A DNA stretch of 64,000 nucleotides, from contig OX597820.1 in the NCBI GenBank assembly GCA_951406725.2, positions 55,490,001 through 55,554,000 on the forward strand. The letters are read 5' to 3'. Position 1 is the stretch's first letter. Each line of letters opens with the position of its first letter. A program made the position numbers and the translations under genes. This stretch comes from Octopus vulgaris. Its lineage: Eukaryota. Positions 787 to 57,270 of the stretch are shown here, piece after piece. The notes under the pieces are model-generated. The model saw only the letters and a list, made by a program, of their open reading frames with translations, had not been told where the DNA came from and ran no database searches.

Positions 787-1096
787 TTTTAAAAAAGAAA
801 AAAGAGTCAATAAACTCATATATGGCCGTAAAAGCATCAAATAGCAGACTCGGAAACGTGTTGGCAGCCATGGCCAATGTGAAGAGAGTAGAGAAAAAAA
901 TGACTTTGCAATTTACAAAATAGACCGGAAGGATTACGGGCGGATAAAGTCAGATTTCTTCCATGACGTAGGCCCACTTAGGTTGGATGTAACATCTCCA
1001 CATATATTCGAGGGCCTACGTCAGACTCCCCCACGAGGCCCAGAAAAAGAGAAGGAAGAAGAAGAAAAACCGAACCACTGATATAAAAGGTAAGTA

Positions 1097-4000
1097 ATGG
1101 ATTACATTTATGTTGGTTGTTTAAATGTGCGCGGCCTGGGAGCAGGCTGGAAGCAAGGTCGCTTCCTGCATGATATCAGGTCGCGTAATTTAGATGTTAT
1201 TGTTGCTACAGAAACCCGGCTAGAGGGGCCAAGAGGTCTACTCCCGCTGTTTGACGGCTACGAGAGTTTTTTCTCTCCTGGCAGTCCTACAGGCGGGAGT
1301 GGGGTGTTGGTCCTATTAAAAAGAAACCGGGTTTCTGAGAAAAAGTTAATTTTTGCAGATCCAGAAGGTAGGCTGGTCGTCATGGATTTGACGTTCAGTA
1401 ATGGTAAAGTTATCAGACTGGTTGCAATTTACGCACCCAACCATACAGGGCAAAGTGATTATTTTCGTGAACTAGAAAACTTTCTTGGTACTTCGCATTC
1501 ATTAGTGGTGCTAGGAGACTTTAACACAATTTGCAAAGCGGATGTAGATTATGTTGGCTCGTGTCCAGATAGAAAAGGCAACAGTGGCTTCATGGAACTG
1601 CTAAGCCGCTTTGAGCTAGCAGATCCTTATAGGCTGGAATTTCCGAACGCTCCATTGTGGACATGGTCAAACAGCGACGGATCTTCCAGGTCGTATCTAG
1701 ATAGAATACTAATTAGAAAAGTAGACAGTAAAATAGCTAAGTGTCCACAGTTTTACCCGATCAGCTACAGTGATCATAAAATGGTCACTTGTAAGCTTGA
1801 CATAGATAAGGTTAAAAATAGAGGATCCGGTTACTGGAAACTTAATACGTCCCTTTTGGCGATTAAGGAGTACAAAGACCGGATTAGGAATATAATTCAG
1901 AGGGCACTATCTGGTACCATCATTAATAACAAATGGTGGTACGCCCTCAAACGAGCCATCAAGTTTGAGTCTATTAGATATAGCATAGGAGTAGTGGCTA
2001 GAGAGGCTAGAAGGGAAACTACTCTAGTTAAGGAATTAGAGGAAGCCATGAAAACTGGCTCTGCGGCTCAGGTGGCGGCCAAGAGACTGGTGTTAAACCA
2101 GCACCTCGAGGCCAAACACATGGGCTGCATTGTCAGGGCTAGAATCCGTCATATGGGATGTGAAGGAATCAACGCCGTGAGATGGGCCCGAGTGGTGGAA
2201 GCTCAGCATGGTAACGATGCCACGATTCGATCTTTGACGAACCAACAAGGTGAGTTGATAAACGAACCCGAGGAGATGTGTGAGGCCTTTCAGGAGCACT
2301 TCGCTCAGCTTTTCGGTGAGTGCGGCGGACTGGATAGGAGGAGGGCCTTTACGGACCTACTCGACGGTCTGCCGCGCTTATCGGGGCGAGATGCGGAGGG
2401 CTGTGAAGGGCCAATCACGCCTGAGGAGGTGGTTGAGGCAATGGCGGACTGCGGCGCGGGCAAGGCGCCGGGTTTGGATGGTCTACCCTATGAGTTATAT
2501 AAGAGTATGCCAGACTTGTTCGGGCACCTACTGGCGGAGGTCTACGCGAACTGGCAGCAGAACGGGCTTATACCCAGATCTGTGCGCCGGGGAGTAGTGA
2601 CTCTCGTCAGAAAGGACCCGAGCAAGGGGGAGTGCATTGATAATTTCAGGCCCATCACTCTGCTAAACACAGAGTTGAAGATTTTGGCCAAAGTGTTATC
2701 GAAAAGATTGGCGCGTGTCGCGGATGGTCTGATCGGAGGGGCACAGACATGTGCCGTTCCGGGCAGATCCATTCAGGATAATCTCCATCTAATGCGGTAC
2801 ACTATAGAGGGGTTTAATAGTGATTCTGGCAAGGGTGGGGCACTGGTCCATTTAGACCAATCTAAAGCTTTTGATAGGGTCGACCATCGTTACCTGGTAT
2901 CTGCCCTGGCACAGTTCGGGCTGAGCCTTGGATTCCTCAGGTGGATTATCGAAATTTATGATAACATCGACTCGGTAGTTCGGGTGAACGGCTTCTTGTC
3001 GAAGCCGTTCAAAATCAAACGCTCGGTTCGTCAAGGGTGTCCGCTCTCCCCGCTTTTGTACGTGATGGCTCTTGAGCCATTACTGCGAAAACTGAGCGGC
3101 ATCCCGAGACAGCCAGGTAATGGAAAATCAGTGTCAGCGTACGCGGATGACATCACCATCATCGTAACCGAAATGGACCACCTATGTAAAGTAGGCAAGG
3201 CCATAGAGGTGTACGAGACGGTGACAGGAGCAAAAGTTAATCGCGAAAAGTCAGTCGGCTTGCAACTCGGCACCTGGAGAGGCAAGTCGATGCCTCCTGA
3301 CAGCGTCGTGGGACGTTGGACGGAGGGTCCGATTAAACTGCTAGGGGTCTGGTTCGGTCCAGACCTCCAAATAGAGAAGAATTGGGGCGAGGTAACGAGC
3401 AAGGTGGCTGCAGTAGCCAAGACCTGGTCTTGGCGGTGGCTATCCCTGAAAGGGAGGGCGGAGGTGGCCAATGTGTTTATCGCATCGGTTATCACCTACC
3501 GCCTTTCCGTCGTTCCTTGCCCTGATTCGTGGTTGATCAAGTTGGAAAGACAGCTCTTCTACTTCTTGTGGAAGGGCGGGAAACCACTTGTGAAACGCTC
3601 TACTTGCTGTCAACAACCGTTAAAGGGTGGGCTAGGGATGCCTTGGCTGATGATGCGCAGACATGCGCTGAGGTTAAGACATCTGTGGCTCTACCTGGAT
3701 GGTGAACGGGTGTGGTCTTCGCTAGCAAAACTGATGTTTCCCAAGTTCACTAGTTTCGGTGGATGGGAAACCTGGCTGAATCGTAGATCGAAACTTGGTA
3801 CTTGGTACACGGAGTGTCGCAAGGCTCTCCTGCTATTCCGTCGCTCGGGCAACGCCTGCGGTGGGGGTTCCACCACATTCTTCTATAGAGGGTTGGTAGA
3901 GGCGGAATGTGAAGATACCTTGGGGGAAACCCTAGGTCTCGACGATAATCAGCTGGCCAGTCTGTTCCGACGTACGTTCGAGCCAAGGACACTGGACAAC

Positions 4001-4492
4001 TTCCAGAAGTCTCTGGCATGGCAATGCTACAGAGGAGCTCTACCTGTTCGGGATAAACTCGCAAGGCACGGTGGCCAAGACAGTCCGATATGTCCAAGAT
4101 GCGGGCGGGATAGGGAAACCGTCCCGCACGCGATTGTTCATTGTCCGGACGTGTCTGAGGTGTGGGTTTATGCCGAACACCTGTTGTCAGGTACACGAAG
4201 AGTACAGCTGTCGACTGAGTCGATTACAAAAATTGACCCACCGGATTTCCTCGTGAATGAAGGTAAGTTTCGTTTTCTCGTTGTAGTAGCAATCGCGAAA
4301 GAGGTGATATGGAAGACGAGAATGAAAGGTTTACAGTCAGGCAAGTTCATCTCCGGCCCTGGTTTGATGAATTATTTCATCTTTCACCTGAAAAGGAAGA
4401 TAGGGCTGGAGAGAATATGCCTGACTAGGAGAGCGTATGAAGAACGATGGAAGGATGTAGCACGGAAGTTGCGAATGAAAGTTACAACATAA
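1097..4492 (+). CDS. LINE ORF2: apurinic-like endonuclease, reverse transcriptase, C-terminal zinc finger (1131 aa, uninterrupted)
   Basis: APE motifs LNVRGL, TET, IYAPN, GDFN, LDRI, SDH; RT motifs KAPGLDG, FRPITLLN, DQSKAFDRV, RQGCPLSP, YADD; C-terminal CPRC..H..HC. Confidence 0.97.
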   Translation: MDYIYVGCLNVRGLGAGWKQGRFLHDIRSRNLDVIVATETRLEGPRGLLPLFDGYESFFSPGSPTGGSGVLVLLKRNRVSEKKLIFADPEGRLVVMDLTFSNGKVIRLVAIYAPNHTGQSDYFRELENFLGTSHSLVVLGDFNTICKADVDYVGSCPDRKGNSGFMELLSRFELADPYRLEFPNAPLWTWSNSDGSSRSYLDRILIRKVDSKIAKCPQFYPISYSDHKMVTCKLDIDKVKNRGSGYWKLNTSLLAIKEYKDRIRNIIQRALSGTIINNKWWYALKRAIKFESIRYSIGVVAREARRETTLVKELEEAMKTGSAAQVAAKRLVLNQHLEAKHMGCIVRARIRHMGCEGINAVRWARVVEAQHGNDATIRSLTNQQGELINEPEEMCEAFQEHFAQLFGECGGLDRRRAFTDLLDGLPRLSGRDAEGCEGPITPEEVVEAMADCGAGKAPGLDGLPYELYKSMPDLFGHLLAEVYANWQQNGLIPRSVRRGVVTLVRKDPSKGECIDNFRPITLLNTELKILAKVLSKRLARVADGLIGGAQTCAVPGRSIQDNLHLMRYTIEGFNSDSGKGGALVHLDQSKAFDRVDHRYLVSALAQFGLSLGFLRWIIEIYDNIDSVVRVNGFLSKPFKIKRSVRQGCPLSPLLYVMALEPLLRKLSGIPRQPGNGKSVSAYADDITIIVTEMDHLCKVGKAIEVYETVTGAKVNREKSVGLQLGTWRGKSMPPDSVVGRWTEGPIKLLGVWFGPDLQIEKNWGEVTSKVAAVAKTWSWRWLSLKGRAEVANVFIASVITYRLSVVPCPDSWLIKLERQLFYFLWKGGKPLVKRSTCCQQPLKGGLGMPWLMMRRHALRLRHLWLYLDGERVWSSLAKLMFPKFTSFGGWETWLNRRSKLGTWYTECRKALLLFRRSGNACGGGSTTFFYRGLVEAECEDTLGETLGLDDNQLASLFRRTFEPRTLDNFQKSLAWQCYRGALPVRDKLARHGGQDSPICPRCGRDRETVPHAIVHCPDVSEVWVYAEHLLSGTRRVQLSTESITKIDPPDFLVNEGKFRFLVVVAIAKEVIWKTRMKGLQSGKFISGPGLMNYFIFHLKRKIGLERICLTRRAYEERWKDVARKLRMKVTT

Positions 4493-8718: not shown

Positions 8719-9962
8719 TAATGGGGTTGGATAAATTAATGGAAACACCTTAAAATTTCAAACAAATTAATTTTAATATGGGTCAGGGCGGCCTTTGGCA
8801 GTAATTACAGCTTGAATTCTATGAGGTATGGGCTCGTACAAAGTTTGAATTGCTTCCAAAGGAACTTTTGTCCATTCTTCAGCTAAAACAGTCTCCACTT
8901 CTTGTAGTGATGATGGTGGAGGATATTGACTCCTTACTTGTTTTCCTAAAATGTACCGTAAATGTTCAATAATATTGAGATCTGGGGACTGTGGTGGCCA
9001 GATAAGATGTTCAACCTCACTAGAATGTTCCTCGCGCCATTCAGTAACAATTTTAGCTGTGTGAATTGGTGCATTATCATCCTGAAAGATTGCGTTTCTC
9101 TCTGGAAACAGTTCCACAACCATAGGATGAATTTGATCAGATAAAATAGTCTTGACTATTAATTCTGTCATGAAGGGAAACCACTGGGCTGGAAGATTTC
9201 CAAGATATAGCTCCCCACCCCACCCAGATCATCTTAGATCCTCCTCCATGTTTAACAGTTGGAAGAAGGCAGTCTGGGTCAAATGCTTCCTTTGGCTGTT
9301 TCCACACATATACTCGGCCAGTGGTTGGAAATAAGGTAAAGGATGACTCGTCTGAGACAATAACATTCTTCCACTGCTCTAGAGAGCTATTCTGTAGGTT
9401 TTTACTCCACTCTAAATGCTTTCCAACATTTGTTTTTGAAAGTAGTGGTTTTCTGATTGCAGCCCTCCCGTGAAATCTGGCTTTGTGCAGCTCTTGGCAA
9501 ACAGTTTTTGTGGAAACTGGGTTCTCGAGGTGGTCATTAAGCTCTGCAGTAATTTTGAGAGCTGTACTTTTGTGATCCTTTGTAACAATTTGCATAGGAG
9601 TCTGACAGTCCCTATCTGAAAGTTTTGGTTTTCTTCCAGAATTTTGTTTTGACATGGAGGTTTTTCCCTCTTTCTCAAAGGCTGTCATTACTTTCGAGAT
9701 AGTACTTCTTGATACACCAAACATTTTGGTTGTTTTTGTTACACTAGCACCTGCCACACGAGAATCATCAGTTTGACCTCTTTTAATGAATTTTGATTAC
9801 CTTTTTCTGATGATATCAGAAAAGAAACAGCAATTTTAGCTAAACATATTAAGCAGCACTAATAATAAATAAAAAAACACAAAATAAAGAAGCTTTTGAT
9901 GGTTTTATAGATATTTCAAAATTATGATGGTAGGTGTTTCCATTATTTTGTCCAACTCATGT
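8719..9962 (-). mobile_element. Tc1-family DNA transposon, full length but decayed
   Basis: TIRs GGGGTTGGATAAATTAATGGAAACACCT / AGGTGTTTCCATTATTTTGTCCAACTCATG in TA context; internal transposase. Confidence 0.93.
8773..9790 (-). pseudogene. Tc1 transposase (DD36E), frameshifted
   Basis: HTH with GRKPKL, SDES, TVKHGGG, FQDDNAPIH, WPPQSPDLNIIE; split over ORFs 9137..9757 and 8773..9171. Confidence 0.92.
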
Positions 9963-15567: not shown

Positions 15568-18507
15568 CTAGTTTCAGCTCATGAGCTGTGGCCATGCTGG
15601 GGCACTGCCATTTGGTGTTGCTACTTGGTTTTACTTCACGAAAGCTTTTTAGCAATTGCCATTTGGTGCATGAGAGAGTTCGATGCAGCTGCCCTCATCT
15701 GCACCTCCTGCCGTGAAGTTGGTTCATCTGGGACACCTGATAGGAAGAGATCCAGTTCCATTTTAAAGACATCTGCATCCACCCCATGCAGGTCTCTCAG
15801 GTTCTTCGGGAGGATATTGAAGAGCTGTGGGCCTCGGAAGCCCAGGCTATCACAGTATCTTGTCCTACATCTTGATGGCAAATTTGGAGTCCTAGGCACC
15901 ACGCAGTGGCGCCCAGTTCTGGCATTTGTGTAACTCTCGATGCCAAAGTTTGGGACACATCCCTCAAGGATCTTCCAGATGTATATTATGGCATATCTCT
16001 CCCGCCTACGCTCCAAGGAATATAGTTTTAATCTCTTGAGTCTTTCCCAGTAGCTCACATTCTGCATAGAGGCTATCTTCTTTGTGTAGCTACGCTGGAT
16101 CGCCTTGAGCTCTGTGATCAACTTGACACTGGATGGTGACCATAACTGAGAGCAGTAGTCAAAGCGGCTTAGGACAAGTGTCCTCCAGAGGACCATCATG
16201 GTTTCTTGTTCTCTTGTTCTAAAGGTTCTGAGAATCCATCCGGCCAGACGTCTACATTTCATTGCCAATTTAGCAACATGTACACGAAAGGTTGCATCAT
16301 CACTCATGTAAATACCCAGGTCACGCACTGATTGTGCCTCTGGGATTGCTATTCCTCCGGGTCCAGTGTATTCATTGGGTATTGCATTCAGTTTTGCATG
16401 CTGATAGTATAAAGCTTGAAACTTTTCAGCATTGAACTGCATGCTATTCTTTTCAGCCCACTTTTCAGCTCACATTGCAGGCGTTTAGTGTCCTCAGGGT
16501 TCTGTATTGCCTGTGAAACTTTTGTATCATCTGCATAACTTGTGATCGTGGCTCTCTGCGTGGCTGAGGGCATGTCTGAGAGGGCCATTATGAACAGTAG
16601 TGGTCCCAGAACAGTGCCCTGCGGAACACCGCTCACTATTTGCGTGTTAATGGAAGTGGCCCCATTGGCTACTACCACCTGACTTCTATCTTTCAGAAAG
16701 TCATGAAGCCATTCTCCCAGTTTTCCAACTATGTTGAGATCACGCAGTTTGTGACATATCATTCCATGATCGACTTTATCAAAGGCCTTTGCAAAGTCGA
16801 GATATATCACTTCCACATTTGAGTGGTTGAGCAGCCGTTTCAGCACCCAGTCATAGTGTTGTAGGAGCTGAGTTAAACAGCTTCTCCCTGGTCGGAAACC
16901 ATGTTGGGTGTCGGGCAGCAAGTCATTTTCTTCAAGGAAGGTGATCAGTTTCCTTCTGACTATTCGTTCCATGACCTTGCTGATGTGTGAGGTCAGAGAG
17001 ATAGGTCTGTAGTTCTTGGCCTCCGCTCTGCTACCTCCTTTATGAATGGGGCATATTTTACCTTCCTTCAATTTTCTTGGAAGTTTGCCAGCTGCAAGGA
17101 AGCTCTGAAAGAGGAACTGCAGTGGTCTTGCTAGGACTCTCTTACATGCTTTTAGGAGGATTGCCGGGAATCCATCGGGGCCAGTAGCTGAGTCTGTTTT
17201 CATTTCATCTATAGCCTTTATTACATCGTCTTCCTTTATATCGATGTAATTTATCGTCACCGCCTCTGATTTTATATCTGCAGTGGTAAAGAAGTCAGTT
17301 GGATTGGTGATTTGGAAATGCCCAAGGGGTGGAGTGAAAACACTCTTGAATTGCTCATTCAGTATTTCACTTACCCTCATTGGTTTTCCTGTGAGTGTGC
17401 CATCCTTTTCAAGGAGTGGCCCTATTCTACAGTGCACCGTAGCTGTCTCTTTGGCATACCTGTAGAAAGCTCTGGGGTTAGATTTTATGTTGTCTATAGC
17501 CCAGGCTTCTTTGTCTGCTCTTTCCTTTTCATGGGAGAGTTGCAGACATTTTTCAATTTCCACCAGTTTTATTTTTAGGCGGGACTTTTCACTGCTTTCA
17601 ATCTGTTTGTTTAGGCGATTTGAAATTTTTGTACGCCGTCTCATTAAAATTTTCCTCTCTCTGGGGATTTTGTTCTTGTGTACAGTGGCCTTTCTCTCTG
17701 GGACACATTTGTAGCATATGGCTTGCATTACAGACATGAATTGTTGAAGTTTCACGTCGATGTCTGGCGAGGAGAGACATTTAGACCAGTCTTGTTTGAG
17801 GATCTCTTTCTCAATTTGTTTCCAGTTTGCCTTATGGTAGTTCAAGCTGGAAAGATTCTGAGGGTTTCTTGTAGGCTGCATGTCCGTGCTCTCTTTTGGC
17901 CCGTACATGGTCAGCTCTACCATGTTGTGATCCGAGAGTAGTGTCGGTGTCACTTTCACATTATGGATGAGATCCATGTCATTTGTGAAGCAGAGATCCA
18001 GTGTGTTACCTGCCCTGGTTGGTTGGAGTATTACTTGCTCCATGTACAGGGTGTTGATGAGGTTCAGGAGGGACCTCGCCTGTCCTCGTTCACATCTTGT
18101 CATTCCTGGGAGAGAAAGGCCCTCGGGCCATCTGACATTGGGTAGATTGAAGTCTCCCATAAGAAGTACACTTATGTGTTGTTCTAATGTGATTAGAACT
18201 TCTATTTTTATAAGGCAGTCTTCAAACTTGCCCACATGGCTTGGGGCATCTGGAGGGCGATATGTAGCACACACAACTACATCAAGTTGCCTTATATGTA
18301 CAACTAGTGTGTCACACACCGAGTTTGAGTATGACAGGAGGACCTGGGGTGTGAGGTCCTCACGGATGTACATAGCAACTCCTCCATGACTCCTTTCTTT
18401 TCTGTCGGTCCGTAGTACAACATACTGTGGTATGTGTAACTCCGCATCTGATATGTCCGGTTTCAGGTGCGTTTCCGTAAGTGCTATGCATAAGGCTTGA
18501 TTGCATG

Positions 18508-18510
<3 letters not shown>
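15536..18510 (-). mobile_element. CR1-clade LINE, 5'-truncated, with (AATC)n tail
   Basis: APE motifs (LTETHL, GGVAMY, YRPP, GDFN, LDL, SDH), RT motifs (NYRPISLTS, QHGFR, DFAKAFDKV, GVPQGTVLGP, YADD), CR1 C-terminus YCSQLWSP..SLERRR; (GATT)n on + strand at 15536..15567. Confidence 0.95.
15636..18510 (-). pseudogene. CR1 ORF2 (APE-RT) with one frameshift near 16460
   Basis: ORFs 16388..18373 and 15636..16442 together give a nearly complete ORF2; EN motifs continue upstream to ~18510. Confidence 0.9.
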
Positions 18511-18545
<35 letters not shown>

Positions 18546-18869
18546 CGTAAGGTGTATTAGCCATCTGAATGTGGCTAGCCACTGGGGGGGGGTTACTGAT
18601 GCTTTTAGCCCCAGGCGATCAACATCACCAGAAGGACTTTAGACACTATCTCAGTGCCCTTGTGTTATTTGCAAAGGGAGGTCATCCTCCCTCGAAGACC
18701 CGAGTACTACATACGGACTATAGTTTCAAGGTAATTGCCTCTCGTCAACGCATGGTAAGTACCAGTTTTCGATGAAGGAGTCCCCTTGCAAATAAATATA
18801 TAACGTTTTTCACAGCAACCACTGCTAGTTCGAATGAAAAGGAATTGTCACAGCAAGAAAAGTTGGACC

Positions 18870-46565: not shown

Positions 46566-46919
46566 TATAGTTATAAAATTCTTAGATAAAATTTGTAGAA
46601 AAAGAGTTTGGAATCATGTGGCAAACATGATATTTTTTCATCTTCAAGTACATCAGTGGTTCTTAACCTGAGTGATAGTACCCCCTTGCTGTTAGTTTAC
46701 AAGGGAATGGTAAATGTCATGGGGGGGGGGGGGGTATGAAGGGTGGTGGGTATTTAGAGGGGCTTGTAAGTTTTTTTTTTTTGTTTTGCCACTTCAACAT
46801 GGCTGTTCTGTACAGAACTACATTTCTACCATTTTTTTTAACCTCAGGAGGACATCTCCAGCTGGTTAATGACACAACCTGTCTGACATATTACAAGCAG
46901 GGGAGCAAGCCCCGACCAC

Positions 46920-46995
46920 CTAGCAGTGACAAGATCAGTATACCAGACTGGTTTCAGGGTATTTCCCTTGTCAGTACTGGACACCTGTCTGCTAG
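46920..46995 (-). ncRNA. Type I hammerhead ribozyme (G8->A variant)
   Basis: Minus strand: CTAGCAG-ACAGGTGT-CCAGTA-CTGACAA-GGGAAATACCCT-GAAA-CCAGTCTGG-TA-TACTGA-TCTTGTCA-CTGCTAG. Confidence 0.8.
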
Positions 46996-47199
46996 ACATG
47001 GCAGTTGTTTGTCCTAGCTTGCAATATATAGAAAAACAACAGCCATGGTGAAATGGGAACAAACATTATTTTTCAGTATTGTTACTACTTACAACTCTTA
47101 TAGAGATTTTAGAACTAGCTACTTTGCTTGTTGCAAAATCAGCAACTGAATATAGCATGTTTTTCAATATGTTGCGAGCTAGGCCAAATGGCTGCCATG

Positions 47200-47278
47200 T
47201 CTAGCAGACAGGTTTCCAGTACTGACAAAGGAAAATATCCTGAAACCAGACTGGTGTACTGGTCTTGTCACTTCTAGA
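47200..47278 (+). ncRNA. Type I hammerhead ribozyme (degenerate)
   Basis: CCAGTA-CTGACAA-AGGA/AAATA/TCCT-GAAA-CCAG/A/CTGG-TG-TACTGG with extended stem I. Confidence 0.78.
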
Positions 47279-47591
47279 TGGTAGGGGTTCACTTCCCTGC
47301 TCATAATATATCAGACACAGGTTGTGTTATTAACCAGCTGGAGGAGATGTCCTCCTGGGGTTAAAAAATGGAAGTAATGTAGTTCCGTATGGAACAGCCA
47401 TGTTGGAGTGGCAACAGACATTACTTTTCAGTATTGTTACTACTTACATTTCTTATAAAGATTTAGAACTAGCTACTTTGCTCGTTTGTAAGTTTTCTTA
47501 GAAATAAAATATTTAAACCAGGTACAATATTCCATTTAACTTTTTAACATTTCAACCAGCCATATCCAGTCAAAATATTCTACCTGTTTCC

Positions 47592-47775
47592 AGGCAACAT
47601 GCTCAGCAATATTTCGTCTGTCTTTATGTTCTGAGTTCAAATTCAGCTGAGTTTGACTTTGCCTTTCATCCTTTCGGGGTTGATAAATTAAGTACCAGTT
47701 GCATACTGGGGTCAATCTAATCGACTGGCCCCCTCCCCTGAAATTTTGAGCTTTGTGCCTAGAGTAGAAAAGAAT
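47592..47775 (+). mobile_element. SINE B nested in a TTAA MITE
   Basis: Family motifs; AATATTCTACCTGTTTC duplicated on both sides. Confidence 0.78.
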
Positions 47776-47811
47776 ATTCTACCTGTTTCATGCTTAAACT
47801 AGCTAGATCTA

Positions 47812-48080
47812 GCTTCCATGACTTTCGGAAACATATTTTCATGCTAAGAGTTGCTGAAGTATGGAACAAACTGCCGGCATCAGTTGTTAGTTGTTGGAGA
47901 ACTGCATCCTTCAAAACTTCCATGCTTCTGAGATTTGCCAACACTACACCTGATTTTCTCCCGTCCATACACACACTTCCCAGACATTTGTACATTACTG
48001 CATATGTTTTATACGCACTTTTGACAAGTTGTGGTGCACCTGAGCACTGTATACAATAATTTCATTTTAATTATTATTAT
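47812..48080 (+). mobile_element. CR1/L2-type LINE 3' fragment with (TTA)n tail
   Basis: FRKHIFMLRVAEVWNKLPASVV motif. Confidence 0.75.
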
Positions 48081-49056
48081 TCACACCTACACTAACGTAT
48101 CACTTTACAAATAAACAATCATAGCATTGAAATCTCAAAACTGTCAAACAATGCAAGATTAATTTAAAATTATGTGAATGAATAAGCATTACATTTGACA
48201 GTGTAATCTGAATGCTAAAGGGTTAAACACATTTTCTAAATAAGTCTTTGTTGGGATTAGAATATGTGCCAGACCAATGTTAGAAAAACATGATTGATGA
48301 TGCACCAAGGTCCAGTATCATTATCTTTTAACATCTATGTTCTATGCTGGCATGGATTGGTCAGTTCGACAGGATCTGACGAGTCCAAGGACTGCAACGT
48401 CTGCTTTGGTATGGTTTGTATAGTGGGATATCCTTCCAAATTCTAACCACTTTACAGCTTGTACCAGGTATTTTTATAATTTTTTTTTCTAAGACTTTAT
48501 CTTCTTTAGTAGTTTCTATGAAAATTTAACATTGTCACTGGTGTAAGCAAATATTTAAAAAGCAGACCATGCTGGATGGGAAAGTATAAGGGAACATAGA
48601 TAATAAACTACTGTACAAAATTAGTCGCTGCTTGATTAAAATAATTGTTTTAAAAATCAAAACACATGAAGAAGGTGTCTCTAAAACAACACTGGACGAA
48701 AGGAGTGCGTTGTTGAGTTAGAAATGGTTGAGAACCACTGAAGTACATTAACCTGTAATTAACCTAATTATTTGTTTCTAAACACACAGCTCCCCACCGA
48801 CATATATACACACAACAGTTGTTATCATTGTGTAATTCAAAGTGTATGAAAGTCATTGTCAGAACATATGAGTCTAGCTAAGTTTGAGTAATTAGAAATC
48901 ATAATTAGAAAATATAAAACAAATTCAATATCCTTATAGGAGCTAAGTCAAATGCTTGCCATGCTGATAGATAAAATAGGTGGTACTGGGTCAACCAGAA
49001 GTGAATTATGTGTACACAAGATGTACTTTTAATATATAACTCTTCTTGTTTTATTT

Positions 49057-49273
49057 AGGGTAGTGAGCTGGCAGAATTTGTTAGCATACCAGGTAAAATG
49101 CTTAGTGGCATTTCGTCTGTCTTTACATTCTAAGTTCAAATTTCAATGAAGTCTATTTTACCTTTCATCCTTTCAGGGTTGATAAAATAAATATCAGTTT
49201 AGTATGGGAGTTGATGTAATCTACTAAATCTCTTCCCTGAAATTGCTGGTCTTGTACCAAAATTTGAGACCAA
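49057..49273 (+). mobile_element. SINE family B, diverged
   Basis: Family head, central and tail motifs. Confidence 0.75.
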
Positions 49274-50276
49274 TATGTAAATATTTTATTCTTGTTTAAT
49301 TAAATAATCATGCATGTGTAACATTACTACAATACCTTACTATTTTTTATCTTATAGTCCATGACACTTTGCAGAGCCTCTAAGACTGTGGAAGGAAGGA
49401 AAGGGGAAGATATTCTTAAGCATTTGGTATTCAGATTATTCTATCAAATGTAATGCTTATATATTCACATTGTTTTGAACCAATCACGTATTACTTCACA
49501 GCTTTGAGATTTTGATGTGATTGTTTTACCTTTAGAATAACATTGTGTTAGAATGACAATTCAGGGTAAGTGTGAAAGGCCAGATCTAGCCAGTTTGAAT
49601 ATAAAGCAAGTAAAACATTTTGGTTGGACATAGCTAGTTAAAATGCTCAAGGGTTAAACCAGAAACCGGGCCCAAATGTTTCTGAGAGAGTGGATCTACT
49701 GAAGAACACTAAGGTTCTTAAACCGGGTGACAAATTAAGCCTATCACTGAAGTAGGCTGTGGTGGGATTTGAACTCAAAATGAAAAAAATTTAGAACAAA
49801 TACTACAAGGTATTTGGTCCAACAGCCTCACTGTTCCACTAATCTACTTCTTTTTCTTGTTTTAATAATTTTGACTGTGGCCATGCTGGAGTACTGCCTT
49901 TTGGTCGTAGATATTGACCCCTATTGACTCTGAAAAGATGACAGAAAAAGTTGACCGTAGCAGAATTGGAACTCAGAATGGAGAGAGCTGGGCTAAATAG
50001 TTCTGAGGTAGTCTATCCAACATTCTATCAATTTAACCAATTCACCTACTAACAATGTATAGCAATTTCTCAATTTATTGATTACTATGGGAAGTGAAAG
50101 TAATTGCTTAATTGCAATTAAGCCAAATTAACTGTAAAATGCATTTATAGAAACAAAAAAAATGAGAGAATTTAAGACTCGGGTGAGTTCTAAGGATTCT
50201 TTAAGTTTATACTTTAGGTAACAACCTGGTTTTTGTTACAGAATTAATGACAGAGTAATTTGTTTGATTGTTTGTA

Positions 50277-50308
<32 letters not shown>

Positions 50309-50554
50309 TTCATTATCATTTAACGCTTACTTTTCTATGCTTGCATAAGTGACATAGAATTTGTTGACACATATTTTCTATGACCAGACGCCCTTCCTGT
50401 TGCCAACTTTATCTGATATCTCTCCATGGCAAGACATATTTTTTACAGAAAGCAGAAAATTAATAACCTTGCTTGTATGATTTTGCTCATTCACAACCAT
50501 CATGTGATGACTAGGCAAAGGTACATTACACACACACTAACATATATATTTTTC

Positions 50555-50905
50555 TTTTATTCTTTTTCTTGTTTTAATAATTTTGACTGTGGCCATGCTG
50601 GAGTACTGCCTTTTGGTCGTAGATATTGACCCCTAGACTTATTCTTTGTAAGCATGGTACTTATTCTATCAATCTCTTATGCCAAACCACTAAGTTACGG
50701 GGACGTAAACACACCAGCATTGGTTGTCAAGTGATGATGGGGAGGACAAACACAGACACAAAAATATATACATATATATATATATATATATACAATGAGC
50801 TTCTTTCAGTTTCTGTCTACCAAATCCATCCAAAAGGCTTTAGTTGGCCCAAGGCTATAGTAGAAGACATTTGGTCATGGTGACAGGCTGTGGAACTGAA
50901 CCCGT
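50555..50905 (-). mobile_element. SINE family A
   Basis: TTTGACTGTGGCCATGCTGGAG..CTTCTTTCAGTTTCTGTCTACCAAATCC. Confidence 0.8.
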
Positions 50906-51764
50906 CGTTGTCATCATCATCATCATCATCATTATTATTATTATTTAACGTCTGGATGCCCTTCCTAACACCAACCACTTTGCAGAGTGTGCCGGGTGCT
51001 TTTTACATGCCACTCGCATGAGTACATTCATGTAGCACCAACATGAGTGTCTCTTATGTGGCACCAGCACCTTAAAGAAAAGGCCTGTATGTATAGATAT
51101 CAGTGAATTTATTTAGCTTGATGCGTCTTCTCGAGTACTGCAAACCACCACAACTCCTGGTCCCTCATCATTTCCTCAGTGAGGTGCATCATCCAAAGAT
51201 CTTTTCTCACCACTTTGTCCCACGTCTTCCTAGGTCTATCAACTGCCACAGGTTTCCTCTACAATTAGAGCTTAGTACTTCTTTATGCAGCTGTCCTCAT
51301 ATCTCTCTCTTTTACACACACACACACATACACACAGAAAAAAAACCCAGGTTTTTTCAGTTTTTGACTACCAAATCAATTCAAAAGTCTTTGGTTGGCC
51401 CAGAGGTACAGAAGATACTTGCTCAAGATTCATGCAAGGTTCACAGCTATAGAAGATACCTGCTCAAGTTCATAGAAAAGATACAGGATTATACAGTACG
51501 TATAAGGCAACCACCTAAGCTGCTGCCCATGATTCTGAGTCCCTGCCCTACCTGGTGTTGAAATTCCATGGTGCTAAGCAGATGAGTGAAAAATCTTTTC
51601 CTAAACAAGATGCTGGTTGCTTACAAGCATGGGCATCCTGTCAAGAGATTTTCCCCTCATCTGCTTAATAGTATGAAATCAGAGCAAAACACCAACTTTT
51701 AAAAGTTTGTCAGGATTCAGGTGTAACAGTAGCTTGTATTGAGCATTGTATTGAGGCATTTTTT

Positions 51765-52065
51765 ATGCCTCCTTTTCAAGCCTAGCCAGGCTAATGGGCC
51801 CAGTTTCCCAGTTTCTATGGCATATGTGTTCTCCCCAGCTGGACGGGACGCCAGTCCATCACAACATTACTCAAAAAACAGGAAGAGTGAGAGAAAGTTG
51901 GGGTGAAAGAGTACAACAGGGGTTGCCACCACCCACTGCTGGAGCCTCATGAAGCTTTAGGTGTTTTTGCTCAATAAACACACACAACGCCCGGTCTGGG
52001 AATCGAAACCGTGATCCTCCAACTGTGAGCCCGCTGCCCTAACCACTGGGCCATTGCGCCTCCAC
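51765..52065 (-). mobile_element. tRNA-derived SINE family D
   Basis: Reverse complement of TGGAGGCGCAATGGCCCAGTGGTTAGGGCAGCGG..GGTTTCGATTCCC; homologous to 62901..63205. Confidence 0.85.
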
Positions 52066-53148
52066 AAAACCAATGCATATTTGACAGTTAATTTTGTTAC
52101 AGTTTAGCTCCAATTCAGCTTTGACTGAGAAAACCTATGATCAAAAGTATTTCATCCTGTTTTTCTTTTAGTGACATCTAGCGCTACATTATTTAATATG
52201 CCCTTTCAAATTTAAGACAATCGTCTTGATTTGAGGAAAATTTGGCTGGTATTTCCAGCAGGTTAAACAATGACATAGATACTTCCTCATTGGCTTACAT
52301 ATGTTTAATATATCTGGAAACCAAAATATCTTTCCCTGATATTCTTAGAAAATTAAAACTATTCAGGAAGAATAAATTTGTAGTTTACTGCGTAAAAAAA
52401 ATTCAAATAGTTAAAAAAAACAACTCTCATAAATTTTTGTGCTTCTTTCCTTGACAAAAAATATATAAATAAAAATAGCTTGAAACATCAGATTTCTGTT
52501 CTTAAGAATTTTATGAAAAACTTTCACTTTCAATATGTCACAGTAGCTTAGCATAATACTAAGAATAAGTTGGGATACAGAGCATTTTAAAAATGGAGAC
52601 ATTGAGGATATAAGAAAATACACCAGCTTGTAGGTAATTTGGAAGTATTACAGATCTCAAAACAGATATACCTTGGAATTGGTTGAAGAGAGAAACCAAG
52701 AGCTTGGTAATTTCCTAAGTTCACATAACACTTGGATTTTTGCCAATGCAAGAGATTTACTTCATTTAAAATATCTCTTTTGGTTTTTTTCAACAATACA
52801 GAGGGAAGACTAATAGATATGATACTGCTTAGTAAATTGAACATTACACTCAGTTCCTGAAAATACTGCGATACTTGAAACTGTAAATATCTGTAAATAG
52901 CTTCAAGACCCTACTTTCATTTTCTAACAGTTAAGAATTACACTATTTTTAACATATAATTATATATATATATTTATCCCATATTTATACACAAGGGGCA
53001 GGAACAGGCAGTTGCTTAAACTGGTCCCAGTATCAGGTTGGTACATATTTTATCAACTCCCAAATAACAAAACAGAGCAGAGTGATGGGTGAAATACCAC
53101 TAAGCATTTCGTCCAGCATGTTAATGATTCTGCCAGCTCGCCACCTTA

Positions 53149-53180
<32 letters not shown>

Positions 53181-53184
53181 AAAT

Positions 53185-53518
53185 GTACAAGCTCCAAAAA
53201 AGATGAGATTGCATGAATGTGGAGAATGAAGAAAGTAACTGTTATCCTAGTAGTTGTTGGGGCATTAGGAACATTAACAATCAGAAATTAGTTGGAGAAA
53301 TTGGGATTGACATGAGTATAGAATATGCTCTGAAATCTGCTTTATCGAGAACAGCAGGGATTTTGAGACTAGTAAATTGATGTTAAGTGTCGTGGAAAGA
53401 GACCCTGTGAGACCCTTGACAACAGGTTGTTGTCCGTTCTTACAGAATCAGCCAATTAACAGGAGCAAGTGAAATAAAGAGCCCTGAGAAGAGATGTACA
53501 ATAACAATAAAAATAATC
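53185..53518 (+). mobile_element. R4/Dong-like LINE 3' relic (restriction-like endonuclease)
   Basis: MWRMKKVTVILVVVGALGTL..KSALSRTAGILR resembles the PVV.GALG..QK.ALLGTA.ILR motif; (TAA)n-like tail. Confidence 0.65.
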
Positions 53519-54340
53519 CTTTCTACTAAAGGCACAGGGTCTGAAATTTTGAGGGAGGGGGACTAGTTGATTACATCAACCCCAGTGTTTCACTGGTACT
53601 TAATTTATCGATCCCAAACGGATGATAGGCAGAGTTGATCTCGGCAGAAATTGAACTCAGAATGTAGTGACGGGTGAAATACAGAGAAGCATTTCATCTA
53701 GTGTGCTAACGATTCTGCCAGCTTGTTGTCTTAATAATAAGAATCCTTTCTACTAAAGTCACAAGGCCTGAAATTTTTGGGGAGGGGACTAGTCGATTAC
53801 ACCGACCCCGAAAAGATGAAAAGCAGAGTTGATCTCGACAAAATTTGAACTCAGAATGTAAAGATGGATGAAATGCTGCTAAGGGTTTTCCCTGGCATGC
53901 TAAAGGTTCTGCCAGTTCACTGCCTTGTTAATGGTTACAAATTTTGGCACAAGGTCAGCAATTTCGGGGGCAGAGGTAAGTTGATTCTATTGACCCCAGT
54001 ACTCAACTGGTGCTTATTTTATTGACTCAGAAAGCATGAAAGGCAAAGTCAACCCAGGCAGCATTCAAACACAGAACACAAAATCGGAAAAAATGCCATT
54101 AACTATTCAGCCTGGCACAGTAACGGTTCAGCTAACAATCATAATAAATTAGAGTTGTAAGGTGGCAAGCTGGCAAAAATATTAGCATGCTGGGCGAAAT
54201 GCCTGTCTTCCACCGAGGTTGGCTTTGCCTTTCATCCTCTCGGAGTCGATAAATTAAGTACCAGTTGTGTACTGGTGTTGATCTAATAGACTGGCTCCCT
54301 CCCCAAAAATTTTAGGCCTTATGCCTAGAGTAGAAAAGAA
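53515..54340. mobile_element. Cluster of SINE B copies (three - strand, one + strand)
   Basis: Repeated family motifs at ~53515, 53740, 53940, 54158. Confidence 0.8.
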
Positions 54341-55800
54341 TAAATTAGAGTTGTTTGCAGTATCTTTGCCCTTCTCCTGTGTTAGGGTGGGATAATTTAA
54401 GGAAAGTAAAATGAAGTGTTATGGAAAAGGTAATAAATGAAAGAAACAAGTACAGGCAGGTAAGGTCATAACTGCTGTACACATGGTCAGACTTCTAAAA
54501 AAACGTGACCACTTATCGAGGTGTAAGTGTGTGTGTGTGTGTGTGTATGCGTGTTGCCTTCTTTTAAGATCCTTTGTTTCCACAGAGGAAAACAAACAAT
54601 TATTATTCTTATTATTGAAAATGTTGTACAGTATTATTATTATTATTATTGTAGTTGCCATCGGCACTATCATACTACTACTACTACTACTACTACTACT
54701 ACAACTACTTTTACAACTATTACTATCACTACTACTATAATGGCTATTAATGATAACGAAGACAGAGAAGGAGGAGGAAGATAAAAAGGAGGAGAAGGAG
54801 GAAGCAGAGGTAGTAAAGGACAAAAAAGGGAGAAGCATATAAAGAAGGGGAGGTGCTGAAGGAGAAGAAGAAAAAGCAGAATGACACCACATACAATAAA
54901 ATCCCAGCCAGAAACGTGACCAGAAAGAGACATTCCAAAGAAGGAAGCAAGTAGACCAAAGAAATCACCAGTACCAGAGCTGAAGGGGAGAACTGATGGT
55001 GGGAGTAAGAACATTATGTGAAGCAAAATGTCTCTCTCTTCCTTCATATGCATGCAACAACCATAAGCTTCACCACTATCGCCATGGCTACTATAAAAAC
55101 TATAACCACCAATACCACCACCACCACCACTACCTCCTATATTTACAATCATTTTGATCACATGTACCACTAGTATCATCACCACAATGACCAGATACAT
55201 TCAAATCCACCACCACTACTACTATTACCACCAGCACCAGCACCACCACAACCACCACCACAACAACCACCACCACCACTTTCACACCTGAACTACATCA
55301 CCGGCTACAATTACAACCATCATAATCACATGTAACACCACCATAACCACCACCACCATAATCACCAGCCTTAGTAATGATGATACAATGCAAAATAAAT
55401 ATTTGGCAGAGAAAAGAATAATAATACAGACTACAATAACAAACTTCCATGTCATCAAATAGTGTCATATTTTAAGTAAATAGTAAGACAGGCCTTCATA
55501 GCTTCCGAAAGTGGGAAGAGTAAGCAGGGAGTCCTCGCTTTAGATTGCTTAACTTGCCATGAGTTCAGGCAATGTTATAAGCCACAGGTGATTTTTTTTA
55601 CTATTTTTTTTAATATTTGGAATGAATAGTACAACTCTCAAGGAAGAAGGGTAACCTGATAATGGTTAAAGATCATTTCACCTTCACCTTCACATGTCCA
55701 CAGCCACAATAATGATTCCCAATGACTCAGCTTACCTATAAGGAGGTGCTGAAAAGTTTTTGGGCTTTGGGTAAAAGAAAATACAGGAAGATCAGTTTAA

Positions 55801-56550
55801 TTATACAGTGGTAGATACCATGAGAAAAACCCTCATATTAGATTTTAGTACAAAATGCACACTTGTTTATATTGCTAGCAGTTCAGCAAAATGAACTGAT
55901 AGTAGTTACTAGGCTTGAAAAAATAAGTCCTGGGGTAAATCTATTTGACTAAAACCCTTCAAGGTGGTGCCCGAGCATGGCCACAGTCAATTGTTTCAAA
56001 CTAGATAAATGATAAAAGATACAAGATAATGCCACCTAAAATACAGTATAGCAATATAAACAAATGTACTTTTTGCACCAAAAACCAATATTAGAGGTTC
56101 TCTTATGGTATATACCACTGTATAACTTGTTCTAACAGAACAACCACATTTAAGTAGGGATAAATATTACTGCTCAGTATTAACACTACATAGGACACTT
56201 ATATATATTTCTTAACAAGCTCACTGGCTATCATGACACCAGTGGCTGTTCTGGCACTGTTTTTCCTATATATCATTGGTGGGAATGGGGAGATGAGTCA
56301 CTGCTATCTCTAGCAGTCGAGTGTCCATCACTGATGAGACCTGGGAAGGTCAAAATCATGTGATCTGATGGTATCAGTGCTGGAGATAGCAGAGATTTAG
56401 CTCCTCATTAGAGATATAAACATGCCTGCATTCTGAACCAAAAACCAATATGAGGGTTTCTCTCATGGTAACTACTGAAGAATAGTTTGTTCTAAAGGAA
56501 CATCCATGTTTAAGTGGGGATAGATATTCCAGCTCAGTATTAACACTGTC
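55801..56550. repeat. Second locus of the hammerhead-containing ~360-bp repeat (inverted fragment plus ~1.4 tandem monomers)
   Basis: 55801..55877 is inverted relative to 56049..56125; 56065..56190 is repeated at 56426..56550; homologous to 47038..47491. Confidence 0.8.
56301..56392 (+). ncRNA. Type I hammerhead ribozyme (G12->A variant) with long stem I
   Basis: CTGCTATCTCTAGCA..CCATCA-CTGATGA-GACC/TGGGAA/GGTC-AAAA-TCATGTGA-TC-TGATGG..TGCTGGAGATAGCAG. Confidence 0.82.
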
Positions 56551-57270
56551 TCTATCGCTAATATATATCTACCCAAAAAGGGCTCAGCAAATGATAACAA
56601 TGTCAACGATTAAGTAGAGTGACATATATATATATAATGTCAGTGACCAGTTTATATGAGTACACCACAGGATTTTGTACTATTAATGAAAAACTAGTGG
56701 AATATCAGTAATCAGGTGATGGGAGTTTAACAAAATGCTTCCATACTGTTAACTCTGAAAGATAACCTTAATTTTCATTGCTATGCACTGTGTGTAAATG
56801 TGTTTGTCAGTAATTGTATGTATGTGTTGTTTAAATGGAAAATATAATGAACAGTGAGGCTAGACAATGTCAGATACTAGGAAGCAGATAAACAGAGACT
56901 ATGAACTGTGTGTATGTGTGTGTGTGTGTGTGTGTAATATTTAATATAACAACCAAAGTATAACATAATGTTTCAAAATTCAAGTTCATTCCACAGCATG
57001 GCACCTTTGGTAAGTATATCTTCTAATATAGCCCCAGGTCAACCAAAGTCTTGTGAGTGAATTTGGTATGCAGAAACTGAAAAAAACTCATTGCATATAT
57101 ATCATGATCATATAGTGTCTGTTGTCCATGCTAGCTTGGATTGGACAGTTTGACCAGGGCTGATAAGCTGAGGGGCTGCACCAGACTCCAGTCTGATTTG
57201 GCATGGTTTCTACAGCTGGATGTCCTTCCTAATGCCAACCACCCTGAGAGTGTAATGGGTGCCACTGGCA

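What the first reader, a model, noticed from the sequence alone, without database searches (positions are those of the whole stretch)
46786..56550. Retrozyme-like family: ~355-360 nt non-coding monomer with a type I hammerhead ribozyme, at two diverged loci
Seen: loci 46786..47491 and 55801..56550 share homologous monomer sequence (AACAGCCATGGTGAAATGGGAACAAACATTATTTTTCAGTATTGTTACTAC vs AACAACCACATTTAAGTAGGGATAAATATTACTGCTCAGTATTAACACTAC). They also share the period (~355 vs ~360 bp) and the layout (partial tandem plus inverted copy), with a hammerhead fold at the equivalent position. The stems differ in sequence yet keep pairing: stem I CCAGTA/TACTGG vs CCATCA/TGATGG, stem II AGGA/TCCT vs GACC/GGTC, stem III CCAG/CTGG vs TCA/TGA. 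Established: tandem repeats of a few hundred bp with type I hammerheads define metazoan non-LTR retrozymes, which yield circular RNAs and are linked to Penelope-like elements; tandem plus inverted truncated copies typify Penelope insertions. Inference: a self-cleaving, possibly circRNA-forming mobile RNA family in this genome. The copies here each carry core substitutions and are probably dead.
Basis: partly seen in the sequence, partly recalled or inferred. Interest (0 to 1): 0.85.

Follow-up and report, generated by a model that had tools for sequence, protein, structure and literature searches.

The report
Hammerhead retrozymes bearing Penelope insertion footprints
Two decayed copies of a family of ~355-base non-coding jumping elements built around a hammerhead ribozyme fold, whose insertion ends match those left by Penelope-like retrotransposons, so they were likely copied around the genome by borrowed Penelope enzymes, and younger intact-looking relatives in the same genome make that idea testable.

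Summary
Both loci are old copies of two related, dispersed, ORF-less repeat families (A, 355 nt; B, 360 nt). Family column counts give a full type I hammerhead core, with stems that differ between families but keep pairing. All three hammerheads at the two loci carry core changes, and neither locus has two same-strand ribozymes. All four families end at two fixed sites about 170 and 205-235 nt past the cleavage site. Inverted-arm insertions usually have the long end on one side only (25 of 29), the Penelope 'tail' pattern, also seen in this genome's own Penelope-like elements. No copy examined is attached to a Penelope ORF, and the helper element was not identified. Cleavage, expression and circles are untested. 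Verdict: new members of the known non-LTR retrozyme class, with unusually direct genomic evidence for Penelope mobilisation. The scan had not noted this DNA before; it noted a hammerhead pair in a rotifer retroelement.

The parts
46786..47046 (-). Family A inverted arm (monomer position 113 through the unit boundary to about 22); ends a few bases short of end site 1, beside a T run
46935..46980 (-). Hammerhead on the inverted arm: one core base lost at positions 8-9 and the outer stem I pair broken; likely dead
47038..47486 (+). Family A direct arm, 1.27 units (period 355), ending at end site 2 (tail included)
47216..47262 (+). Type I hammerhead with G8 changed to A (CpG decay) and G at position 17; inferred cleavage point after 47256; likely dead
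55799..55878 (-). Family B inverted arm (monomer 264-343), no hammerhead, stops short of end site 1
55879..56048 (.). Piece of an unrelated abundant SINE-like repeat lying at the exact centre of the family B palindrome
   Evidence: 5 other hits in the window; the SINE label is my recall
56049..56568 (+). Family B direct arm, 1.45 units (period 360), ending at end site 2
56325..56371 (+). Type I hammerhead with G12 changed to A (CpG decay); inferred cleavage point after 56365; likely dead
18545..18824 (-).
18710..18754 (-). Family D type I hammerhead with the family's unaltered core (U3 and G8, a wobble in place of C3-G8)

Best explanation
The two loci are decayed insertions of two related non-coding repeat families of 355-360 nt with a type I hammerhead fold, and they were likely mobilised in trans by the reverse transcriptase and endonuclease of Penelope-like elements. 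Steps: (1) A tandem source locus is transcribed (inferred). (2) The unit folds into a long rod ending in the hammerhead (predicted; pairing is kept across families). (3) Paired hammerheads would cut the RNA into units that can circularise (inferred from the class, untested). (4) A Penelope protein nicks AT-rich or (TA)n DNA and starts reverse transcription inside the RNA at one of two fixed sites about 170 and 205-235 nt past the cleavage site (the fixed ends are shown; the enzyme is inferred). (5) It reads through the cleavage site into further units, giving 5'-truncated head-to-tail copies, often with a second inverted arm started from the other site (shown). The template is more than unit length. 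An uncleaved tandem transcript fits part of the record; I put a circle step at about 55%. A and B are extinct waves (median 14-16% from family majority); C and D are recent (about 2-4%).
For: Dispersed families: 2113 and 1727 first-look candidates, 40 scored each; these are not copy numbers. Core counts, A (39 motifs): C3 36, G8 31, G12 38, H17 non-G 37. B (63 motifs): U3 43, C3 19, G8 34, A8 26, G12 46, with the G-to-A losses at CpG sites. RNAalifold on 26 copies of A, B and C gave 26 pairs, 23 with a two-sided change. Circular fold z of family majorities -7.7 to -9.6, window copies -2.4 and -3.1, flank controls -0.3 and +1.2. 3' ends at two sites: A 33 of 52, B 49 of 61, C 33 of 38; D ends at 173-177 and 221-222 nt in 17 of 18 segments. 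Opposite ends in inverted-arm insertions with both ends assigned: A 6 of 7, B 6 of 7, C 8 of 9, D 5 of 6 (one duplicate locus counted once). The same two-end pattern occurs in this genome's autonomous elements (9 short and 9 long of 18 shown). PMC8557442 describes the tail as not observed in non-LTR priming; PMC11167929 maps it to two RT start sites. 5' junctions are not enriched at the cleavage site: 0 of 52, 3 of 61, 1 of 38 against 3.1, 3.6, 2.2 expected. Longest open frame 52-82 codons. Young RT plus GIY-YIG ORFs of 781 aa are present.
Against: No helper was identified: no significant tail similarity to 7 sampled Penelope lineages (best p 0.06) and no 3' UTR homology. Family A has no arm with two hammerheads among 36 loci. 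B has 16 of 50 arms spanning two or more cleavage sites, but only 1 with two intact motifs. U3 with G8, common in B and fixed in D, departs from the consensus core in PMC3088659, so activity is uncertain. In D, units of one insertion are not identical and some variants are unit-specific, which a single monomeric circle does not predict. The end windows were chosen after seeing the data. Loci were best hits or pattern hits, not a random sample. Covariation rests on only three family lineages.
Confidence: 0.78

Rival explanations
1. They are plain 5'-truncated pLTR remnants of an autonomous Penelope-like element that I did not sample.
For: The insertion anatomy is that of Penelope elements, and pLTRs carry hammerheads (PMC4209133). 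Searches score only 40-150 candidates, so a rare parent could be missed.
Against: Arms longer than one unit continue into the same monomer with a fixed period, up to 2.9 units in B and 3.5 in D, rather than into unique sequence. Penelope protein hits lie near 2 of 111 loci: L027 (unattached) and L143 (the locus through which C was found). None lie within about 4 kb of 10 multimer loci. The four shared 5' flank pairs are common repeats found in 16-70 held loci.
Confidence: 0.08
2. Classical model only: a monomeric circle is the sole template, copied by rolling-circle reverse transcription.
For: Fixed period, read-through of the cleavage site and a stable circular fold. Units within one insertion are closer than units of different insertions (D 1.7% against 3.8%; C 2.2% against 3.6%). 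Mussel retrozymes of 350-390 nt form circles (PMC7229834).
Against: Unit-specific variants are shared in register by both arms of L244, and by two of the units in L242, L243 and L247. This fits a multimeric template or later gene conversion; 10 loci only. In vitro, the uncleaved RNA was the dominant substrate of a Penelope protein.
Confidence: 0.3
3. SINE-like elements mobilised by an ordinary LINE, or a satellite that expands by unequal crossover.
For: LINE ORFs are present (window 1094-4492 and 16388-18556). Mosaic variant sharing between units suggests some local conversion.
Against: Two fixed internal 3' ends, a one-sided tail and inverted arms. No long arrays among the loci read. Copies are dispersed over many chromosome-scale contigs.
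Confidence: 0.05
4. A chance fold or a palindromic DNA element with no ribozyme ancestry.
For: Rfam gives no gathering-level hammerhead hit; its best hit at locus A is a hairpin model, MIR2630.
Against: A conserved core with different but paired stems in four families, and 0 hits in shuffled windows.
Confidence: 0.02

Closest known systems
Metazoan non-LTR retrozymes (PMC7229834; mussel 350-390 nt, axolotl 330/350 nt)
   Same: Unit size, GC under 50%, type I hammerhead, head-to-tail units, no ORF, self-paired predicted circle, coexistence with Penelope-like elements.
   Different: Here insertions are short (mostly 1-3.5 units) and show two fixed 3' ends and inverted arms, which the sections I read do not describe. 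U3-G8 and U3-A8 cores are common. Circles are not shown here.
Retrozymes as non-autonomous Penelope derivatives (bioRxiv 10.64898/2026.07.22.740005)
   Same: Same conclusion on dependence on Penelope-like elements.
   Different: That work rests on co-occurrence and pLTR similarity, mainly in vertebrates. Here the evidence is insertion footprints, and no pLTR similarity was found to the lineages sampled.
Penelope-like elements with pLTR, tail and inverted arm (PMC8557442; PMC11167929)
   Same: Two RT start sites, one-sided tail (here about 40-60 nt), 5' truncation, inverted arm, microsatellite targets (C 29 of 38 ends; A 8 of 52; B 4 of 61), hammerhead.
   Different: No RT or GIY-YIG ORF; the repeating unit is about 355 nt, not 3-4 kb.
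Non-autonomous Chlamys elements such as MRC1 (PMC8557442 passage)
   Same: Non-coding, head-to-tail, Penelope-mobilised.
   Different: Those generally share 3' sequence with their helper, and most Chlamys lack hammerheads.

Membership tests
Metazoan non-LTR retrozyme | Type I hammerhead core and three helices | tested here: met
   Family counts; not met by the three copies at the reported loci; no Rfam gathering hit
Metazoan non-LTR retrozyme | Head-to-tail units of 150-450 nt | tested here: met
   Periods 355, 360, 361 and 355
Metazoan non-LTR retrozyme | No protein coding | tested here: met
   Longest open frame 52-82 codons for A, B and D; C not tested for frames
Metazoan non-LTR retrozyme | [quoted passage not shown] | tested here: inconclusive
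   Not met at either window locus or in 36 A loci; 1 B arm if U3-G8 is allowed; met by several D arrays on the same condition
Metazoan non-LTR retrozyme | Self-cleavage | not testable with these tools
   Needs in vitro transcription
Metazoan non-LTR retrozyme | Accumulation as circular RNA | not testable with these tools
   Only contig runs with a guessed RNA label were available
Penelope-mobilised element | Two RT start sites with a tail at one end, and an inverted 5'-truncated arm | tested here: met
   in-genome control
Penelope-mobilised element | 3' sequence shared with an autonomous partner | tested here: not met
   7 lineages sampled, best p 0.06; sampling incomplete
Autonomous Penelope-like element or its pLTR | RT plus GIY-YIG ORF joined to the repeat | tested here: not met

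The most novel reading that the evidence does not exclude
A free-standing lineage of ~355-nt ribozyme RNAs has parasitised Penelope enzymes through at least four amplification waves, recognised by structure (a hairpin just before the first RT start site) rather than by pLTR homology. Its youngest families, C and D, are still mobile and give the first system in which retrozyme retrotransposition can be reconstituted with a Penelope protein from the same genome.
Probability: 0.4. Interest if true: 0.72.

Novelty: new member of a known kind. Interest (0 to 1): 0.5.

Why it matters
A 2020 review says animal retrozymes show no conserved motif pointing to their helper (PMC7761336 passage), and a 2026 preprint argues for Penelope elements from co-occurrence and pLTR similarity. 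Here the insertions themselves carry the Penelope two-start-site footprint at mapped positions. Young copies and intact helper ORFs coexist in one genome, so the helper question and the circle-versus-uncleaved-template question become directly testable. The two reported loci are themselves fossils.

Tried and rejected
Rfam: no gathering-level hammerhead at either locus; the microRNA hits come from hairpins and microsatellites. Helper search: GIY-YIG family search and two protein searches, profile scans of 30+20+60+4 Penelope loci and tail alignments gave only separate nearby insertions, no shared pLTR. One resemblance between a Penelope tail and family A failed the shuffle test (p 0.06). Covariation between core positions 3 and 8 within B was not supported (Fisher p 0.40); A8 follows CpG decay. 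Clustering of 5' ends at the cleavage site was not found. Expression: no RNA holder listed; two runs guessed to be RNA held only short family-like pieces; no conclusion drawn. No empty site was found for locus A, so target-site duplications were not assessed. Earlier scan notes: none for this genome or this sequence. Literature searches found no description of these families or of the tail in retrozymes; the only cephalopod item was 235 Rfam hammerhead hits in the giant squid genome (PMC6962438 passage). The library lacks most subscription papers and Repbase. The supplement of PMC7229834 could not be read and the preprint's supplements are closed; either could list related families.

Full report
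Observation. The quoted sequences, periods (355 and 360 nt) and inverted arms are present. Locus A is an inverted arm 46786-47046 joined to a direct arm 47038-47486. Locus B is an inverted arm 55799-55878, a 170-nt piece of another repeat, and a direct arm 56049-56568. The genome is 2.8 Gb in 227 contigs; I take it to be a cephalopod from size and repeat style, which is recall and was not tested.

Families. Searches with each monomer returned dispersed copies, with best non-self hits at 85% (A) and 79-81% (B), from 2113 and 1727 first-look candidates of which 40 were scored. A and B are collinear homologues (profile E 7e-23 and 1e-30; alignments). While sampling Penelope loci I found family C (361 nt, 95-97% identical copies, 2887 candidates). 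A generic scan found family D in the window at 18545-18824 (top hits 92-97% identical, 4156 candidates). Both match the A profile (E 1e-12 and 3e-7); their match to B is not significant.

Ribozyme. In 39 A motifs from 36 loci the majority core is canonical. In 63 B motifs from 47 loci, position 3 is U in 43 and C in 19, and the G8 and G12 losses sit at CpG sites. In C, 27 of 27 have U3-A8, a variant reported in PMC4209133. In D, 27 of 27 listed motifs have U3 with G8, and 25 have an otherwise unaltered core. Intact by my strict rule: A 11 of 39, B 10 of 63 (21 if U3-G8 is allowed), C 23 of 27. The A and B fractions are inflated because 7 A loci and 21 B loci were fetched with intact-core patterns. 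Helix III is palindromic in all four, the form that works as a dimer according to PMC4209133. Stem I extends into a long rod, and 23 of 26 consensus pairs show two-sided changes across A, B and C; this reflects three lineages, not 26 independent events. The window copies carry G8A plus G17 (A direct), a core deletion (A inverted) and G12A (B). That these abolish activity follows from established hammerhead chemistry and was not assayed. Each locus has only one hammerhead per strand, so neither could release a unit. Contigs of two other coded organisms cover the A hammerhead with 0 and 5 differences, and by depth arithmetic they share the A at 47227 and G at 47256. The decay therefore probably predates their split.

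Insertion footprint. 3' ends fall at two sites: A 18+15 of 52, B 27+22 of 61, C 10+23 of 38, at 166-176 and 206-234 nt past the cleavage site. D ends at 173-177 and 221-222 nt. The windows were set after seeing the data, and in C the query favoured the long end on the main arm. Where both ends of an inverted-arm insertion could be assigned, they were opposite in 6 of 7, 6 of 7, 8 of 9 and 5 of 6; 17 of the 40 A-C palindromes had an unassigned end, including both window loci. C and D sit in (TA)n. Autonomous elements in the same genome show the same two ends, with 35-53 nt tails in (TA)n. The 781-aa ORF has RT, GIY-YIG and a cysteine linker of the kind PMC8557442 ascribes to Neptune. PMC11167929 ties the tail to two internal RT start sites, and PMC8557442 says it is not seen in non-LTR priming. 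A short hairpin precedes site 1 in all four families (read by eye); its role is a guess.

Not a plain pLTR. Long arms run on into the same monomer. Penelope protein hits lie near 2 of 111 A-C loci, neither joined, and near 0 of 10 multimer loci with about 4 kb flanks and nowhere in the window. No sampled Penelope 3' region shares sequence with A-D, so the helper is unidentified.

Template. 5' junctions are not enriched at the cleavage site, so cleaved linear monomers copied to their end are not the main template. Units and arms of one insertion share private variants, pointing to one source. Some variants are unit-specific and recur in register on both arms or in adjacent units. That fits an uncleaved tandem transcript or later gene conversion better than a single monomeric circle. 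Because 5' truncation shortens arrays, something must rebuild them; a circle step or local expansion is inferred.

Literature seen. Preprint 10.64898/2026.07.22.740005: parts 1-3 of 5 (abstract through discussion). PMC7229834: parts 2-4 of 6. PMC11167929 and PMC4209133: parts 1-2 of 4 each. PMC8557442, PMC7761336, PMC8969392, PMC6962438 and PMC3088659: passages only. Other papers: search listings only.

Verdict. Real, and correctly read by the first stage. These are new members of a known class. The added value is the mapped Penelope footprint and the young families C and D. Interest 0.5.

Noticed in passing
window 18545-18824 (-): Young family D copy with an unaltered hammerhead, in a (TA)n tract at the upstream end of the LINE reading frame 16388-18556; a better experimental subject than the reported loci.
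   Followed up: yes
L101:3439-3980: Young family C retrozyme-like element with a U3-A8 core, in microsatellite.
   Followed up: yes
L091:3245-6680 and many loci: Young autonomous Penelope-like element with an intact 781-aa RT/GIY-YIG frame, a U3-A8 hammerhead near its 3' end and a 35-nt tail; a second young lineage of about 753 aa appears.
   Followed up: partly
L198-L227, 3' regions: A Penelope lineage whose hammerhead-like motif appears to have A3-U8 in the core and a very short stem II, in 18 of 30 loci shown; read by eye, untested.
   Followed up: no
L101:968-2811: 594-bp unit in three 99% identical tandem copies with an inverted arm; no hammerhead found by my scan; possibly another non-autonomous Penelope-type element.
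   Followed up: no
window 47330-47366: This hairpin segment of family A drew far higher contig depth than the rest of the monomer in all four runs, suggesting it is shared with other abundant repeats.
   Followed up: no
window 55879-56048: A fragment of a common repeat sits exactly at the centre of the family B palindrome; later insertion or capture during the strand switch.
   Followed up: partly
L102:6577-6817 and L108:291-438: Further diverged relatives of A, C and D near Penelope loci, so more subfamilies exist.
   Followed up: no
window 1094-4492 (+), 16388-18556 (-), 9137-9796 (-): Two endonuclease/RT LINE reading frames (1132 and 722 aa) and a Tc1-like transposase fragment.
   Followed up: no
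L244 and L249: The same family D palindromic insertion occurs twice, 250 kb apart on one contig, probably by segmental duplication.
   Followed up: partly
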